Source: a virus (taxonomy: Duplodnaviria; Heunggongvirae; Uroviricota; Caudoviricetes). From it: 35,809 nucleotides of DNA. The translations under genes and the position numbers were made by a program. The notes under the pieces were generated by a model. The model ran no database searches, was not told the origin of the DNA, and was given only the letters and a program-made list of their open reading frames with translations. The stretch is taken from IMG/VR virus record IMGVR_UViG_2690316210_000007, positions 1-35,809 of that record; one strand, given 5' to 3'. Shown one piece after another: positions 1,884 to 9,153 of this stretch. Every line of letters starts with the position of its first letter. Positions within the stretch are counted from its first letter, which is position 1.

Positions 1884-1959
1884 GGCCCTTTAGCTCAGTG
1901 GTGAGAGCGAGCGACTCATAATCGCCAGGTCGCTGGTTCAAATCCAGCAAGGGCCACCA
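1884..1959 (+). tRNA. ileZ: tRNA with CAT anticodon (tRNA-Ile2 lysidine type or tRNA-Met), 76 nt with encoded CCA
   Basis: Cloverleaf read by hand: acceptor GGCCCTT/AAGGGCC, D-stem GCTC/GAGC, anticodon loop CTCATAA (CAT), T-arm GCTGG-TTCAAAT-CCAGC, discriminator A plus CCA. Stx-type lambdoid phages carry ileZ-argN-argO here; the ileZ symbol is by analogy only. Confidence 0.85.
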
Positions 1960-3111: not shown

Positions 3112-4968
3112 ATGGCATTTAAACACTATGACGTGGTCAGGGCGGTATCGCCGTCAGACCTTGCGAAACGACTGACACAAAAACTGAAGGAGGGCTGGCA
3201 GCCGTTTGGTAGTCCGGTGGCCATAACCCCTTATACCCTGATGCAGGCGATTGCAGCAGAAGGTGATGTGGTGGTCAGTGGTGCAACTGAGCCGGATTGG
3301 TACTACGTCATCGTACTGGCCGGGCAGTCCAATGCCATGGCTTACGGTGAAGGGCTTCCGCTGCCGGATTCATACGATGCGCCCCATCCGCGCATTAAGC
3401 AACTGGCCCGTCGTAACACAGTGACTCCCGGTGGTGAAGTATGCGTATTTAACGACATCATTCCTGCTGACCATTGTCTGCATGATGTTCAGGATATGAG
3501 TACGATTAACCATCCCCGGGCTGACCTGAGCAAAGGGCAGTACGGCTGTGTCGGACAGGGCTTACATATTGCCAAAAAACTGCTTCCGTATATCCCTAAT
3601 AACGCGGGGATCCTGCTGGTACCATGCTGTCGTGGTGGTTCGGCATTCACCCAGGGCACGGAGGGGACATTCAGCGAGTCCACGGGGGCCAGTCAGGATT
3701 CGGCTCGCTGGGGAGTGGGTAAGCCGTTATATCAGGATCTGCTTTTCCGCACGAAGGCAGCATTGCAGAAAAACCCGAAAAACGTTTTGCTGGCGATATG
3801 CTGGATGCAGGGGGAATTCGATATGACGAATGCCAGTTACGCCCAGCAGCCAGCAGCATTTCTTGCAATGGTACAGCAGTTCCGTGCTGACCTTGCCGGG
3901 CTGGCGGCGCAGTGTCACGGTGGAAGTCCGGCATCAGTCCCCTGGATTTGTGGCGACACGACATACGCGTGGAAACAAGAACACGGTACGCAATATGAAG
4001 TGGTATATGGTGCATATAAAGGTAAAGAATCCCAGCAGATTTATTTTGTTCCCTTTATGACCGATGGTAGCGGAGTTAATACACCGACAAACAACCCGTC
4101 AGAAGATCCTGATATTGCCGGGTCTGGTTATTACGGTTCGGCATCCCGAACGAACAAAAACTGGGTATCATCAAATCGCCCGACGCATTTCAGCTCATGG
4201 GCGCGTCGTGGCATTATTCCCGATCGTATGGCAACTGCTATTCTGAACGTAGCCGGTCGCACCTTAGCCTTCATTAGTGGTAAGGCACCGGAAATCAAAC
4301 CCTCGCCCGGCGGCGACACTCCATCGGGGCCGTCTGATGGTGACACATCCGTTCGTACAGTCTCCCTGCTGCCGACAGCCGGAGAGGCTGCTGCGCAGGG
4401 CTGGACCATCACCGGCGGCAGTGTTGCGCTGGAAGATGGTGTGTTTAAGGTTACCAAGCAGAGCAATAAAACCTGGTCCCTGATGCATCCGGTGGATGAC
4501 GCAGTCTCCCTGCTGACACGGGGTGGCAGACTGAGCTGTAAGTTTCGACTGTCAGGCGCACTGACCAACAACCAGTTCGGTCTGGGAATTTATCTGTATA
4601 CCGATGTAGCGTTACCTGACGTCGTGGCGATGACCGGGACTGGTAACCCGTTCCTGATGTCGTTCTTCACCCAGACCACAGACGGCAAACTGAATCTGAT
4701 GCATCACAGGAAAGCAGGAAACACAAAGTTGGGCGAGTTCGGGAATTACAGTAACGACTGGCAGACGCTGGAGCTGGTGTTCACCGCCGGCAGTGCCACG
4801 GTTACTCCGAAACTGAATGGAGTGGCTGGCCCGGCATTCCAGGTCATAAAAGACAGTCTGACACTGGGGCTGAATGCGCTGACGCTGACGGATATTACCA
4901 AAAATGCAGCGTATGGCGTTGAGATAGAAAGTCTGGTGCTGGAGATAAATGCACCAGCATCATCATAA
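3112..4968 (+). CDS. nanS-p: Prophage sialate O-acetylesterase (nanS-p-like; SGNH/SASA-type esterase with C-terminal extension)
   Basis: 618-aa ORF with RBS ggagga before ATG 3112. Contains the GQSN esterase motif (VIVLAGQSNAMAYGEG). It sits between the tRNA/stx-equivalent region and the lysis cassette, as nanS-p homologues do in Stx and Stx-like prophages. Confidence 0.7.
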   Translation: MAFKHYDVVRAVSPSDLAKRLTQKLKEGWQPFGSPVAITPYTLMQAIAAEGDVVVSGATEPDWYYVIVLAGQSNAMAYGEGLPLPDSYDAPHPRIKQLARRNTVTPGGEVCVFNDIIPADHCLHDVQDMSTINHPRADLSKGQYGCVGQGLHIAKKLLPYIPNNAGILLVPCCRGGSAFTQGTEGTFSESTGASQDSARWGVGKPLYQDLLFRTKAALQKNPKNVLLAICWMQGEFDMTNASYAQQPAAFLAMVQQFRADLAGLAAQCHGGSPASVPWICGDTTYAWKQEHGTQYEVVYGAYKGKESQQIYFVPFMTDGSGVNTPTNNPSEDPDIAGSGYYGSASRTNKNWVSSNRPTHFSSWARRGIIPDRMATAILNVAGRTLAFISGKAPEIKPSPGGDTPSGPSDGDTSVRTVSLLPTAGEAAAQGWTITGGSVALEDGVFKVTKQSNKTWSLMHPVDDAVSLLTRGGRLSCKFRLSGALTNNQFGLGIYLYTDVALPDVVAMTGTGNPFLMSFFTQTTDGKLNLMHHRKAGNTKLGEFGNYSNDWQTLELVFTAGSATVTPKLNGVAGPAFQVIKDSLTLGLNALTLTDITKNAAYGVEIESLVLEINAPASS

Positions 4969-6242: not shown

Positions 6243-6697
6243 GCAGAGTCGCAGCGATTATTTATACTCTGGTTATCTGCACCATCGTCTGCCTGTCATG
6301 GGCTGTTAATCATTACCGCGATAACGCCATTACCTACAAAGCCCAGCGCGACAAAAATGCCAGAGAACTGAAGCTGGCGAACGTGGCAATTACTGACATG
6401 CAGATGCGTCAGCGTGATGTAGCAGAACTCGACGCCAGATACACAAAGGAGCTTGCTGATGCTAACGCGACTATCGAAAGTCTTCGTGCTGATGTTTCTG
6501 CTGGGCGTAAGCGCCTGCAAGTCGCCGCCACCTGTGCAAAGTCAACGACCGGAGCCAGCGGCATGGGCGATGGAGAAAGCCCAGGACTTACAGCAGATGC
6601 TGAACTCAATTATTACCGTCTCCGAAGTGGAATCGACAAGTTAACCGCTCAGGTCAACTACCTGCAGGAGTACATCAGGACGCAGTGCTTAAAATAA
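6239..6697 (+). CDS. Rz: Rz i-spanin
   Basis: GTG start overlapping the R stop (caGTGAgc). [61 protein letters not shown]... is near-identical to recalled lambda Rz ([61 protein letters not shown]...). Confidence 0.85.
6453..6644 (+). CDS. Rz1: Rz1 o-spanin lipoprotein, embedded in the +1 frame of Rz
   Basis: 63-aa ORF inside Rz with lipobox LLGVSAC and a proline-rich mature region ([16 protein letters not shown]), as in lambda Rz1. Confidence 0.75.
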
Positions 6698-6737
6698 TTT
6701 TAATTTCACTGAAATTTAATACGTGACTTTCAGGAAA

Positions 6738-6764
6738 ATGCCTCGCAGATGCGGGGCATTTTTG
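6738..6764 (+). terminator. Intrinsic terminator downstream of Rz/Rz1
   Basis: 9-bp stem atgcctcgc/gcggggcat (one G-U pair), loop agat, followed by TTTTT. Confidence 0.45.
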
Positions 6765-7113
6765 TACAGGTATTTCACCGCGCACCGCAGCGCACTCAAC
6801 CACGTCGAACCAAACCCTTTGGAATGAGCCTTTGAGTAGTCAGTTAGTGCTGGTGAGCCTTGACGGGCTGATCTCCTATGCAGCAAAGGTTCATCTCAAA
6901 GTAAGACGAACGCTATGACAAACCAAGATTCTATAGACCTATCTGATCTTCGTGGAATGGTCATTTTTCCAGACAAAAGGTAATCACCATAGTCGTATGG
7001 CTATGAATCTTGTTGCTGCAGATAAGCATTTTGTGATTGAAGTGGTCAAATCTCTCAAATGCAGTAAAATGCAGTGCGCTATAATTCAATAACGGAGGGA
7101 GTAAGGAGAAGTC

Positions 7114-7734
7114 ATGAAAGATCAAGATGTTAGGTTCGCGGTGCATCATAAGCTTTTGAAAGAATCGCATTTAGATCCAGACTGCCTTGTGGTCGATGAA
7201 TTTTCCATATCCCTTGGCGCCAGTAGAGCAGACATTGCTGTAATAAATGGTGTTATACACGGGTACGAGCTCAAAAGTGAATATGACTCTTTGGAGCGTT
7301 TGCCTCTTCAAATCAAGCATTATTCTTCTGTAATGGACAAGGTTACTCTTGTCGTAGCTGAGAAACACCTTGAGGGAGCATTAAAGTTAATCCCAGGTTG
7401 GTGGGGCGTTAAAACGGTTTCTGTTGGGCCAAAAGGCGCCATTCTTATAAAGCACATGCGTGGAGAAAAGCTTAATCGAAACCATGACACATTGATGCTC
7501 GCTCAATTGCTTTGGAAAGATGAATGTATCGACGTACTTGAACGATGGGGCTATTCCAAAGGAATCAAAAGCAAGCCCCGATTTGAGTTATGGAATATTA
7601 TTGCGGAAAATATTCCAATAGCGAATCTCAGGCCTGAAGTCAGAACAGCCTTAAAGAAACGCGTAGGCTGGAAAGTTAAGGCTTGGCAGGCTGAGTCTGC
7701 GCCAACCAATAAAGCTGTCTCACGACTAACGTAA
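7114..7734 (+). CDS. Hypothetical protein (206 aa) of the AT-rich cargo island; candidate PD-(D/E)xK-type nuclease
   Basis: RBS aaggag 6 nt before ATG 7114; TATAAT at 7080-7085 upstream. Translation shows an ordered E...hhhhD...hhh(E)hK pattern (LLKESHL..CLVVDEF..ADIAVINGVIHGYELKSE). No similarity to lambda late proteins. Visibly lower GC than the flanking phage backbone. Confidence 0.55.
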   Translation: MKDQDVRFAVHHKLLKESHLDPDCLVVDEFSISLGASRADIAVINGVIHGYELKSEYDSLERLPLQIKHYSSVMDKVTLVVAEKHLEGALKLIPGWWGVKTVSVGPKGAILIKHMRGEKLNRNHDTLMLAQLLWKDECIDVLERWGYSKGIKSKPRFELWNIIAENIPIANLRPEVRTALKKRVGWKVKAWQAESAPTNKAVSRLT

Positions 7735-8743
7735 TATGGTGCGTATGTGCAACTTTACGCCATTCTTTAGAGCCGCCAGATTTGTTAGCGCCTAATGATC
7801 TTTGGTAAATGTAATCATCCCCCCAACTAAATTTGGAGCCAAAGACTTGATACTCTGGCGAACTAACAAGGGTAGTACATAAGTTTTTAGTTTGGCCCCA
7901 TCCATTTCCTTTAACTGCGGTACCTTTTACAAAGATCCATGAGGTATCGTTCGAATATCTCACTGAGACATACTGAGACATGAAGCGTGGGTCTACGCTC
8001 GTAATGGTAGAGCTAGCGGTGGGATAATCACTAAAACTTGGCGTTCTTCCATTGCTAAAATTCTGTACTACGTACATCCAAAGATCGTATTCATGGCGCG
8101 GAATATGATGAACTTGATGTTGCGGTATCCCTGCCTGTGATGCCGGGTATGCGGTTGAAGATAAAATCAAGTTTCTCCACGGAGCTTGGCCTGATAATGT
8201 GTTGACCATGCTTAATGCTTGTTGTTTTAAACTATCAGTTGCGTTTTGAATATCTCCAAAATCAATGATTACATCAATTAAACTAGGATGAATATTTAAG
8301 TGGTTAACCAGACTTGTGAATTGGTGCCATGTCTGGGGGGTGATAGATATAGCGAGCCCATTGATTAAGTTGCGTTGAACAGCATGTATATAGTTTGTTG
8401 AATATGCGGGAGAAACAACAGGGATAATTTCCTTACCATTTACTCTAGCATCTTGGATACACATATCTAGAGGATGATGGCGGCTCGAACCATGTTTATC
8501 TAAATATTTAACATCCAGCAAAACAGGACGATTGGCTTTCCAGGATGCCGCAAGGTTAATACCGAAGTCAGATAAGTAAGAACTCAAATTCTTCTTGTAG
8601 CATTCGTTTTCATAATCCCAGTCTATGTCTGGAATGGTAATGATCGGAGTAAAACCAGAGAGCGTAGTTTGATCTAAAAGCATCAGAGATTCATATTCAG
8701 CAGGCTTCCATTTCAGCTGTGGATAATATTGATGTTGACTCAT
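7676..8743 (-). CDS. Hypothetical protein (355 aa) of the AT-rich cargo island, convergent with the 206-aa ORF
   Basis: Minus-strand ORF with RBS AAGGAG 5 nt before its ATG (8741-8743). Alternating short hydrophobic strands (VLLDVKYL, IIPVVSP, GLAISIT, IDVIIDFGDI, NLILSST) suggest an alpha/beta fold. No recognised catalytic motif and no match to lambda proteins. Its 3' end overlaps the 3' end of the + ORF by 59 bp. Confidence 0.55.
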   Translation of the reverse strand: MSQHQYYPQLKWKPAEYESLMLLDQTTLSGFTPIITIPDIDWDYENECYKKNLSSYLSDFGINLAASWKANRPVLLDVKYLDKHGSSRHHPLDMCIQDARVNGKEIIPVVSPAYSTNYIHAVQRNLINGLAISITPQTWHQFTSLVNHLNIHPSLIDVIIDFGDIQNATDSLKQQALSMVNTLSGQAPWRNLILSSTAYPASQAGIPQHQVHHIPRHEYDLWMYVVQNFSNGRTPSFSDYPTASSTITSVDPRFMSQYVSVRYSNDTSWIFVKGTAVKGNGWGQTKNLCTTLVSSPEYQVFGSKFSWGDDYIYQRSLGANKSGGSKEWRKVAHTHHITLVVRQLYWLAQTQPAKP

Positions 8744-8966
8744 TAAAACTCCTTAAAATCTTTACTTATCCTAAGTATAGTGTTATGGCGTAACGCCAAT
8801 TGTTTTTATACACTTGAAAACATTGGGAAAAGTTGAGCTATATCTAAATTTACAAAATTGGATGTTATAGAAATCGAGGTTTCAACTAGGCATGGAACTG
8901 CAAAATTTTTAATGCCTGCACGCGAAAGTCGTTGGCGGGTCCTTTCCGGTGATCCAGATCGTTACG

Positions 8967-8978
8967 GGGCGGCGACCT
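8967..8978 (+). other. cos: cos site: cosN 12-nt cohesive-end sequence (cosB region extends rightwards to roughly 9100)
   Basis: GGGCGGCGACCT followed by CGCGGTTTTTCACTATTTATGAAAATTTT, matching the recalled lambda left end GGGCGGCGACCTCGCGGGTTTTCGCTATTTATGAAAATTTTCC; Nu1 follows about 180 bp downstream. Confidence 0.85.
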
Positions 8979-9153
8979 CGCGGTTTTTCACTATTTATGA
9001 AAATTTTTCAGGGAAAATCGTGTCGGTACTTCTCGAATATAACTTTTTGTTTTTTTTAATATTGCATTCATAAATGTCCGACATGAAAGTGTCCGAAAAT
9101 GCCTTTTTCTGGCGTTTTCATGTCGGGCCTTGTATTTGATAATGGGTTGTTCT

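What the first reader, a model, noticed from the sequence alone, without database searches (positions are those of the whole stretch)
7114..7734. 206-aa cargo protein shows a PD-(D/E)xK-like nuclease motif arrangement
The N-terminal third reads ..HHKLLKESHLDPDCLVVDEFSISLGASRADIAVINGVIHGYELKSEYD.., which is a conserved acidic residue, then a hydrophobic strand ending in D (LVVDEF), then a hydrophobic strand with ExK (GYELK). That order and spacing is the restriction-endonuclease-like signature, suggesting a nuclease effector.
Basis: inference. Interest (0 to 1): 0.6.

Follow-up and report, generated by a model that had tools for sequence, protein, structure and literature searches.

The report
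Prophage P4-cII-like nuclease paired with beta
The 206-residue protein is a real member of the known phage P4 cII (sce7726) family and is predicted to have a restriction-enzyme-like nuclease fold with an intact active site. It is always paired with a tail-to-tail overlapping partner gene that also occurs in two proven anti-phage systems, and how the pair works has not been tested.

Summary
The ORF (7114-7734, +, 206 aa) and the quoted peptide are exact. The protein belongs to the sce7726 / Phage_P4_cII family (NF033832, 184 bits against a cut-off of 70).

**Motif.** D28 of VVDEF is variable (47%). The invariant set is E29, D40 (in RADIAVI), E52-x-K54 and Q66xxxY70.

**Context.**
- The gene converges on a TIM-barrel 'beta' gene (7676-8743, -), and their 3' ends overlap by 59 nt.
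- In 77 of 78 informative loci from more than ten phyla the pair is kept. In 75 the genes overlap, always in the same codon phase.
- The pair is the core of P4 gop-beta-cII, a validated defence against lambda and P1. Elsewhere it is attached to the PD-lambda-2 A/B genes. Here there is no gop.
- It lies in a 2-kb low-GC island between Rz and cos of a phage-21-like prophage, present in 127 of 5426 complete E. coli genomes.

**Verdict.** It is most likely the metal-dependent nuclease subunit of a two-gene prophage defence module. Activity, target and the role of beta are untested. The family and its PD-(D/E)xK link were already on record.

The parts
6919..8928 (.). Cargo island between the lysis cassette (Rz ends at 6697) and cos/terminase. 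It is low in GC.
   Evidence: GC is 0.38-0.45 here against about 0.50 in the flanks. Only the flanks match other phages: 6700-6918 matches P22-like phages and 8929-9130 matches phage 21. 1412 E. coli genomes match part of the region, but only 126 hold the whole island.
7043..7070 (+). Promoter-like site upstream of the cII-like gene (TGGTCA-16-TAAAAT). This is a consensus match only.
   Evidence: The region has fewer promoter-like sites than its shuffles, so this is weak evidence.
7103..7108 (+). Shine-Dalgarno AAGGAG, 5 nt before the ATG.
   Evidence: Read from the sequence.
7114..7734 (+). cII-like / sce7726-family gene, 206 aa. This is the finding.
   Evidence: NF033832 E 2.3e-54, 184 bits against a cut-off of 70. 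PADLOC 'cll' E 3.8e-31. PHROG 984. Precomputed Pfam family PF26915 Phage_P4_cII. 27% identity to P4 cII, E 3e-19.
7114..7473 (+). PD-(D/E)xK nuclease domain (residues 1-120). Codons of the invariant residues: E29 7198-7200, D40 7231-7233, E52 7267-7269, K54 7273-7275, Q66 7309-7311, Y70 7321-7323.
7489..7659 (+). C-terminal four-helix domain (residues 126-182), possibly SAP-like and DNA-binding. It contains the invariant W134 and E137; R183 follows just after it.
7676..7734 (.). 59-nt antisense overlap of the 3' ends of the two genes. Codon position 1 of one gene lies opposite position 1 of the other. It encodes the disordered tail of the cII-like protein and the last 19 residues of beta.
   Evidence: The tail 192-206 has pLDDT below 50. 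No terminator-like site or stable hairpin was found. The same phase is seen in 75 of 75 overlapping loci.
7676..8743 (-). 'beta' gene, 355 aa, a TIM-barrel protein and the obligate partner.
8967..8978 (+). cosN-like GGGCGGCGACCT, which marks the end of the packaged chromosome. The island abuts it.
   Evidence: Exact string match. The flank matches the phage 21 cos/terminase region.

Best explanation
The 206-aa protein is a P4-cII-family (sce7726) enzyme. It has an N-terminal PD-(D/E)xK domain with a complete metal-binding and catalytic set, and a C-terminal helical, probably DNA-binding, domain.

Proposed catalytic roles: E29, D40 and E52 act as metal ligands. K54 is the general base or transition-state lysine. 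Q66xxxY70 lies on the following helix.

I take it to be a Mg2+-dependent nucleic-acid (most likely DNA) phosphodiesterase. It works as one half of an ancient two-gene module whose other half is the convergent TIM-barrel 'beta' protein. In this lambdoid prophage the module sits as cargo next to cos. It most likely serves the lysogen as an anti-phage (superinfection exclusion or abortive infection) system, with beta acting as the regulatory or sensing partner and the nuclease cutting DNA once the system is triggered. The overlapping 3' ends mean each mRNA must run antisense into the other gene, which would couple their expression.

Shown here: family membership, predicted fold, invariant active-site residues, obligate pairing, cargo location, and absence of gop.

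Inferred: catalytic activity, DNA as substrate, the defence role of the gop-less pair, who senses and who kills, and any regulatory role of the overlap.
For: **Family and fold**
- Family membership.
- Published HHpred for P4 cII gives PF06319 MmcB-like at 99.76%, plus NucS and PDDEXK families (Rousset 2022 Table S3, read).

**Active site**
- E29, E52, K54 and Q66 are 100% conserved, D40 99% and Y70 95% in 148 unbiased representatives.
- The set is also kept in P4 cII, Mx4, Bacillus phage Edson and Gordonia phage Powerball, apart from F for Y70 in P4 cII.

**Pairing**
- A convergent beta gene lies immediately downstream in 77 of 78 informative genome loci and in every context fetched by protein look-up.
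- The two proteins' pairwise identities correlate, Mantel r 0.73, with 0 of 999 permutations reaching it.

**Defence link**
- P4 gop-beta-cII protects against lambda and P1 (PMC9122126) and is triggered by phage orf184.
- The PD-lambda-2 beta homologue is required for defence (PMC9519451).
- The window's beta matches the PD-Lambda-2_C model at E 6e-32.

**Location**
- Here it is a low-GC island next to cos.
- Elsewhere the pair sits next to cI-like repressors, integrases or satellite primases.
Against: - No family member has a measured nuclease activity in the literature I could search.
- In P4 the demonstrated toxic component is the membrane protein Gop, which is absent here. The gop-less pair has never been shown to defend.
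- PD-lambda-2 was validated from a clone that extends only 396 nt beyond the beta gene. A full convergent cII could not have been present, so beta-dependent defence does not always need cII.
- Beta looks like an enzyme. Its conserved D, R, Y and H residues lie near strand ends. It may therefore be the effector itself.
- cII-like genes occur without beta in lytic phages and in one Xenorhabdus locus.
Confidence: 0.55

Rival explanations
1. Toxin-antitoxin or addiction module. The cII-like nuclease is a constitutive toxin that beta neutralises, and the pair mainly stabilises the mobile element.
For: - Beta neutralises Gop toxicity in P4.
- The pair is strictly linked and lives on mobile elements.
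- The antisense 3' overlap is reminiscent of antisense-controlled toxins.
Against: - Natural beta-null alleles coexist with an intact cII-like gene. One strain has IS1A inside beta and one has a frameshifted beta. A third has IS2 between beta and its upstream region.
- cII-like genes stand alone in lytic phages with all catalytic residues kept.
- PD-lambda-2C is not needed to neutralise that system's toxin.
- A 355-aa TIM barrel with conserved active-site-like residues would be an odd antitoxin.
Confidence: 0.15
2. The protein is a non-catalytic DNA-binding regulator, as the historical name 'cII' and some database names suggest. It would use the nuclease fold only as a scaffold.
For: - Some sources name relatives 'regulatory protein' (P0028 and P0058).
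- The C-terminal domain is helical and SAP-like.
- From my recollection of Ghisotti 1990, P4 cII was named from a plaque or lysogeny phenotype. The paper is not held in the library.
Against: E29, D40, E52, K54 and Q66 are invariant or nearly so across 148 representatives at 50% identity and in relatives down to 27% identity. From general knowledge, inactivated PD-(D/E)xK scaffolds normally lose these residues.
Confidence: 0.1
3. The protein is a DNA-repair or DNA-processing accessory, like MmcB, that helps the phage or host deal with damaged or structured DNA. It would not be a defence component.
For: - The nearest solved structure is 3dnx.
- The nearest Pfam family by published HHpred is MmcB-like.
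- One source names a relative 'DNA repair protein MmcB-like' (P0063).
- Stand-alone copies lie among early-type genes of lytic phages.
Against: - The protein does not match PF06319 by HMM search.
- It is strictly paired with beta in accessory slots of prophages and satellites, and inside two experimentally validated defence loci.
Confidence: 0.1
4. The roles are reversed. The nuclease domain senses or processes an infection cue, such as phage DNA ends or structures, and the TIM-barrel beta enzyme or a host factor is the killing activity.
For: - Beta keeps invariant D, R, Y and H residues that lie near strand ends in the model, as enzymes do.
- Beta is the component shared by all three architectures: with gop, with HigB/Xre-peptidase, and alone with cII.
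- Beta is required for PD-lambda-2 defence.
Against: - Beta has no specific structural neighbour that suggests a toxic chemistry.
- In P4 and PD-lambda-2 other proteins are the toxic ones.
- PD-(D/E)xK domains are the usual effectors in defence systems (general knowledge).
Confidence: 0.2

Closest known systems
Phage P4 cII protein, in the gop-beta-cII defence locus of satellite P4
   Same: - Same protein family: NF033832/PF26915, 27% identity, E 3e-19.
- Same catalytic-type residues.
- Same partner (beta) and the same convergent orientation.
- Both loci lie next to a cos site.
   Different: - There is no gop gene here.
- P4 cII is 264 aa, with a longer C-terminus.
- In P4 the two genes do not overlap. 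They are separated by 27 nt that carry an annotated terminator.
- The host element is a lambdoid prophage, not a P4 satellite.
SPO1766 (PDB 3dnx) / MmcB-like family PF06319
   Same: - Published HHpred links P4 cII to PF06319 at 99.76%.
   Different: - No HMM-level match to PF06319 or to any local Pfam-A model, and no sequence-level match to any PDB chain.
- 3dnx has 146 residues and lacks the C-terminal helical domain.
- That 3dnx belongs to PF06319 is my recollection and was not checked here.
PD-lambda-2 (Vassallo et al. 2022): HigB-like A, Xre-peptidase B, beta-family C
   Same: - The partner gene here matches PD-Lambda-2_C at E 6e-32, better than it matches the P4 'beta' model.
- In 13 loci from other phyla, 10 found from the cII side and 3 from the B side, the A-B-C genes are followed by a convergent, overlapping cII-like gene. 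PADLOC confirmed the A and B identities for L049.
   Different: - A and B are absent here.
- PD-lambda-2 as published has three genes and no cII.
- Its clone could not have held a whole cII.
Nuclease domains of Can2, NucS and type II restriction enzymes (SdaI, NgoMIV, BamHI and others)
   Different: - Sequence identity is only 5-17%.
- There is no CARF domain, no PCNA-binding or N-terminal ssDNA-binding domain, and no adjacent methyltransferase.
- No recurrent third neighbour appears in 77 loci, except PD-lambda-2 A/B in about ten.

Membership tests
sce7726 / Phage_P4_cII family (NCBIfam NF033832; Pfam PF26915) | Score above the curated HMM cut-off over the full model. | tested here: met
   184.1 bits against a cut-off of 70, covering residues 1-183 of the protein and 1-182 of 184 model positions. 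All 67 aligned relatives also match. PF26915 is precomputed for the relatives, but that model is not in the local Pfam copy.
sce7726 / Phage_P4_cII family | Occurs next to a Beta_protein (PF14350) gene. | tested here: met
   Beta lies at 7676-8743. The pairing holds in 77 of 78 informative loci.
PD-(D/E)xK phosphodiesterase superfamily | alpha-beta-beta-beta-alpha-beta core fold. | tested here: met
   [not shown]
PD-(D/E)xK phosphodiesterase superfamily | Conserved Asp on strand 2 and (D/E)-x-K on strand 3. | tested here: met
D40 is 99% conserved and E52 and K54 are 100% conserved in 148 representatives.
PD-(D/E)xK phosphodiesterase superfamily | Divalent-metal-dependent phosphodiester cleavage. 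| not testable with these tools
   Needs a biochemical assay. None was found in the literature searched.
MmcB-like (Pfam PF06319) | Match to the family HMM. | tested here: not met
   No Pfam-A hit at E up to 10 for the protein or any of 67 relatives. The only links are profile-profile (published) and structural. I treat it as a sister family, not as membership.
gop-beta-cII defence system (P4; PADLOC gop_beta_cll) | gop gene: a small two-TM toxin upstream of beta. | tested here: not met
   tblastn with P4 Gop finds nothing better than E 2.8. There is no minus-strand ORF of 30 aa or more between beta and cos. No recurrent small gene lies upstream of beta in 77 loci, apart from the HigB-like gene of the PD-lambda-2-type loci.
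gop-beta-cII defence system | beta and cII genes in convergent orientation. | tested here: met
gop-beta-cII defence system | Confers phage resistance. | not testable with these tools
   Shown only for the three-gene P4 locus.
PD-lambda-2 | HigB-like A and Xre/ImmA-IrrE peptidase B upstream of the beta-family C gene. | tested here: not met
   Only the C-type gene is present. The 223 nt (8744-8966) between beta and cosN (8967-8978) hold no such ORF.
Type II restriction-modification system | Cognate methyltransferase linked to the endonuclease. | tested here: not met
   No adjacent methyltransferase. The nearest one annotated is about 5 kb away, upstream of the tRNA genes and the lysis cassette. 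No recurrent methyltransferase neighbour appears in 77 loci.
RecB/Cas4/lambda-exonuclease-like branch | A Q-h-x-x-Y motif after ExK, and closest structural similarity to that branch. | tested here: inconclusive
   [not shown]

The most novel reading that the evidence does not exclude
Beta plus cII is an ancient, self-sufficient two-gene immune core. Its two genes have been welded tail to tail, with a 3' antisense overlap in one fixed codon phase, since before it spread across bacterial phyla. The published gop-beta-cII and PD-lambda-2 systems would then be two elaborations of this one core, each adding its own toxin. In the bare form carried by this prophage, the PD-(D/E)xK protein would be the effector, and the obligatory antisense read-through would act as the switch that sets the ratio of the two proteins.
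Probability: 0.3. Interest if true: 0.7.

Novelty: new member of a known kind. Interest (0 to 1): 0.4.

Why it matters
The finding as stated is a correct but already recorded family-level annotation. Its practical value is the corrected residue list for mutagenesis: E29, D40, E52 and K54, not D28.

The wider context is more useful. Two experimentally validated E. coli defence systems with unknown mechanisms, gop-beta-cII and PD-lambda-2, share a beta-family gene. This survey shows that beta is almost always welded to a cII-type nuclease gene, including in PD-lambda-2-like loci where that fourth gene has not been described.

The gop-less pair is by far the commonest form in the loci sampled. 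It is small (1.6 kb), it is present in 2.3% of complete E. coli genomes, and it is easy to clone. It is therefore a good entry point for working out what beta and cII actually do.

Tried and rejected
**Searches that found nothing**
- Sequence searches against PDB chains, with the single protein and with a 67-sequence profile, gave no meaningful hit.
- The local Pfam-A copy has no match for the protein or any relative. NCBIfam shows only sce7726, with no MmcB-type model.
- A search for gop by tblastn and by ORF inspection was negative.
- A search for a terminator or stable hairpin in the overlap was negative.
- Literature searches for sce7726, PF14350, Beta_protein and gop/cII mechanisms found no functional study beyond Rousset 2022, Vassallo 2022 and Silas 2023.

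**Resources that were unavailable**
- The afdb50 fold library was not available.
- Ghisotti 1990, the original P4 gop/beta/cII paper, is not held. Statements about the P4 cII phenotype therefore rest on recollection, apart from the fact that Gop is toxic without beta, which was taken.

**Readings considered and dropped**
- A restriction-modification reading. There is no linked methyltransferase.

**Checks I could not complete**
- Whether the original PD-lambda-2 locus of ECOR42 has a cII-like gene. A search from the B protein returned no E. coli entry among the 120 listed. The two plasmid contexts I opened were HigB + ImmA/IrrE pairs without beta.

Full report
**Observation**

The quoted peptide is residues 11-58. 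RefSeq calls the same ORF in an E. coli O78 genome that is 100% identical over the 2.4-kb stretch 6700-9130 that spans the island (WP_000654791.1, 'sce7726 family protein'). As a bare pattern the motif is weak evidence. A loose 'hydrophobic-hydrophobic-D ... hydrophobic-hydrophobic-[DE]xK' pattern occurs in 8.5% of shuffles of this protein and in 3 of 32 long ORF products of the window. The question is therefore decided by conservation and fold.

**Family**

- The protein matches NCBIfam NF033832 (sce7726 family) at 184 bits against a cut-off of 70.
- It matches the PADLOC model 'cll', the cII component of the P4 gop-beta-cII system, at E 3.8e-31.
- It matches PHROG 984.
- Its relatives carry the precomputed Pfam family PF26915, 'Phage_P4_cII'. 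That model is newer than the local Pfam copy, which gives no hit.
- Direct comparison with P4 cII gives 27% identity over the whole protein, E 3e-19.
- The family is large. A profile search of 1.84 billion cluster representatives finds 5619 clusters at E up to 1e-3 and 1383 at E up to 1e-30.

**Conservation**

I used 148 representatives clustered at 50% identity, found without any motif seed. In that set E29, E52, K54, D58, R62, Q66, E137 and R183 are 100% conserved, R7 and D40 99%, N121 99% and Y70 95%. P4 cII, Myxococcus phage Mx4, Bacillus phage Edson and Gordonia phage Powerball keep the E29/D40/E52/K54/Q66 set.

One caveat applies to a different set. The 80-locus genome set was seeded with the peptide HGYE[LI]KSxxD, so conservation of E52, K54, S55 and D58 in that set is not independent evidence. 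I rely for those positions.

**Fold**

An AlphaFold2 model built on a 67-sequence alignment has mean pLDDT 90.4 and pTM 0.85.

- The order of elements is two helices, then strands 25-32, 37-44 and 48-54, helix 63-73, strand 76-82, helix 83-92 and two more strands.
- A four-helix C-terminal domain follows (126-182), and then a disordered tail (192-206).
- E29 sits on the first strand, D40 on the second, E52 and K54 on the third, and Q66 and Y70 on the following helix. This is the canonical PD-(D/E)xK layout.
- Foldseek gives 3dnx as its only significant match (E 2.7e-4, prob 1.00).
- Sequence-only searches of the PDB find nothing.
- The link was already on record. Table S3 of Rousset et al. 2022 lists HHpred hits of P4 cII to PF06319 MmcB-like (99.76%), NucS, AHJR-like and several PDDEXK families. 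Annotators have also called relatives 'MmcB-like' or 'exonuclease'.

**Surroundings**

- The window is a lambdoid prophage. The genes run holin, YdfR-family, lysozyme, Rz (ending at 6697), then the island, then a cosN string GGGCGGCGACCT at 8967-8978, then phage-21-type terminase.
- The island (about 6919-8928) has GC 0.38-0.45 against about 0.50 in the flanks.
- 1412 complete E. coli genomes match part of the region. Only 126 hold the whole of it. The gene pair itself is found in 127 of 5426 genomes, always at 99% identity or more.
- The island holds just two genes: the cII-like gene and, converging on it, a 355-aa gene at 7676-8743 (-). That gene is a full-length Pfam Beta_protein (PF14350, E 7e-56).
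- There is no gop. P4 Gop finds nothing in the window, and there is no ORF of 30 aa or more on the beta strand between beta and cos.

**The pair elsewhere**

- In P4 the order is gop, beta (+), then cII (-), so beta and cII converge there too.
- Every context I fetched by exact-protein look-up shows cII converging on beta with no gop. This covers Enterobacteriaceae, Acinetobacter, Burkholderia, Pasteurella and Vibrio. The pair sits in prophage or satellite accessory slots next to a cI-like repressor, an integrase or a primase. The same holds in Gordonia phage Powerball.
- In 80 genome loci from more than ten phyla by record title, 77 have beta immediately downstream and convergent. These include candidate-phyla-radiation bacteria, Bacillota, Myxococcota, Acidobacteriota and Gastranaerophilales. 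Two of the remaining loci are cut by contig ends, and one Xenorhabdus locus truly lacks beta.
- The two proteins' pairwise identities correlate (Mantel r 0.73; 0 of 999 permutations reach it), as expected for a unit inherited together.
- cII-like genes also stand alone in the lytic phages Mx4 and Edson.

**The overlap**

- In the window the two ORFs share their last 59 nt (7676-7734).
- Among the 77 paired loci, 75 overlap stop-to-stop by 11-158 nt (median 50). All 75 overlaps equal 2 modulo 3, as does the window's. Codon position 1 of one gene therefore always faces position 1 of the other.
- The profile-alignable C-terminal ends of the two proteins themselves overlap by a median of 17 nt, which would explain why the phase cannot drift.
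- The two loci without overlap have other phases. P4 has a 27-nt gap with an annotated terminator.
- Three further loci reached from a different protein overlap by 155, 155 and 158 nt, again 2 modulo 3.
- There is no terminator-like site or unusually stable hairpin in the window's overlap. Each transcript must therefore extend antisense into the other gene. Whether this regulates anything is unknown.

**Link between two published systems**

- The window's beta matches the PADLOC PD-Lambda-2_C model (E 6e-32) better than the P4 'beta' model (E 6.8e-10).
- In about ten of the 77 loci, beta is preceded on its own strand by two further genes. In L049 these match PD-Lambda-2_B (E 1.8e-150) and PD-Lambda-2_A (E 9.6e-41).
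- Sampling from the B protein gives three more loci with A/B, beta and a convergent overlapping cII-like gene. A fourth has the same spacing but no gene call.
- The HigB-like plus ImmA/IrrE pair also exists alone on plasmids.
- The beta-cII pair therefore looks like a core to which different toxin modules are docked: Gop in P4, and HigB/Xre-peptidase in PD-lambda-2-type loci.
- PD-lambda-2 was described as three genes. Its clone extends only 396 nt past the end of C, too little for a whole cII. I could not check whether the ECOR42 locus has one.

**Mechanism**

What is known experimentally:
- P4 gop-beta-cII protects against lambda and P1, and Gop is toxic without beta (PMC9122126).
- The P4 system is triggered by a phage accessory gene, orf184 (bioRxiv 10.1101/2023.04.06.535777).
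- In PD-lambda-2 the beta homologue is needed for defence but not for neutralising the toxin (PMC9519451).

From this and the anatomy above, I think the window's pair is a prophage-borne defence module. In it the cII-like protein is a metal-dependent DNA nuclease and beta is the regulatory or sensing partner.

The simple alternative, cII toxin with beta antitoxin, is weakened by natural alleles. One E. coli genome has IS1A inside beta and one has a frameshifted beta, each with an intact cII-like gene. A third has IS2 just upstream of beta.

A purely regulatory, non-catalytic role is hard to square with the invariant catalytic set. That beta is itself an enzyme, and possibly the effector, remains open.

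**Verdict**

One of the three residues is misassigned. 'Effector' is not established. The protein is a new member of a known, named family whose PD-(D/E)xK affinity was already recorded, and I score the finding itself as modest. Two results go beyond the annotation and make the gop-less pair a reasonable target for experiments: the phase-locked overlap with beta, and the sharing of this core between gop-beta-cII and PD-lambda-2-like loci.

Noticed in passing
window 7676-7734; loci L017-L099: The cII-like and beta genes overlap tail to tail in 75 of 77 paired loci from more than ten phyla, by 11-158 nt. The overlap is always 2 modulo 3, so codon position 1 faces position 1. The two non-overlapping loci have other phases, and P4 has a 27-nt gap with a terminator. 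No terminator or stable hairpin lies in the window's overlap.
   Followed up: partly
L049 5416-8122; also L060, L071, L073, L079, L083, L088, L089, L091, L095, L097-L099: PD-lambda-2-type A (HigB-like) and B (Xre/ImmA-IrrE peptidase) genes sit upstream of beta, with a convergent overlapping cII-like gene as a fourth, undescribed member. The published PD-lambda-2 clone ends 396 nt past gene C, so it could not have held a whole cII.
   Followed up: partly
L103 (NZ_CP042892), L104 (NZ_CM136150), L105 (NZ_CP115370); equivalent to window 7676-8960: Natural variants of this same island exist. One has IS1A inserted in beta, one has a frameshift splitting beta, and one has IS2 between beta and cos. 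In all three the cII-like gene is intact, so the nuclease gene is tolerated without a working beta.
   Followed up: partly
window 8967-8978: The island abuts a cosN-like site (GGGCGGCGACCT). The P4 hotspot that carries gop-beta-cII is also described as adjacent to cos (Rousset 2022), so both elements keep this cargo at the end of the packaged chromosome.
   Followed up: no
L012 2992-3561 (Myxococcus phage Mx4); L013 2935-3528 (Bacillus phage Edson); L022 4968-5567 (Xenorhabdus koppenhoeferi): These cII-like genes have no beta within the sequence fetched (about 3 kb on each side). In the two phages they lie in co-directional gene runs and keep all catalytic residues.
   Followed up: partly
window 7679-8743 (-): The beta protein is a confident TIM barrel (pLDDT 92.7) with conserved polar residues, for example D161, R216, D239, Y240, Y263 and H336 in 72 diverse sequences. 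It has no specific solved relative and looks like an enzyme of unknown reaction.
   Followed up: partly
window 1884-1959 and 2060-2136; 785-1834; 3112-4968: ARAGORN finds two phage tRNA genes, with anticodons CAT and TCT. RefSeq annotates three in the near-identical genome: Ile, Arg and Arg. They lie downstream of a DNA methyltransferase gene and upstream of a 618-aa DUF6645 gene that precedes the lysis cassette.
   Followed up: no
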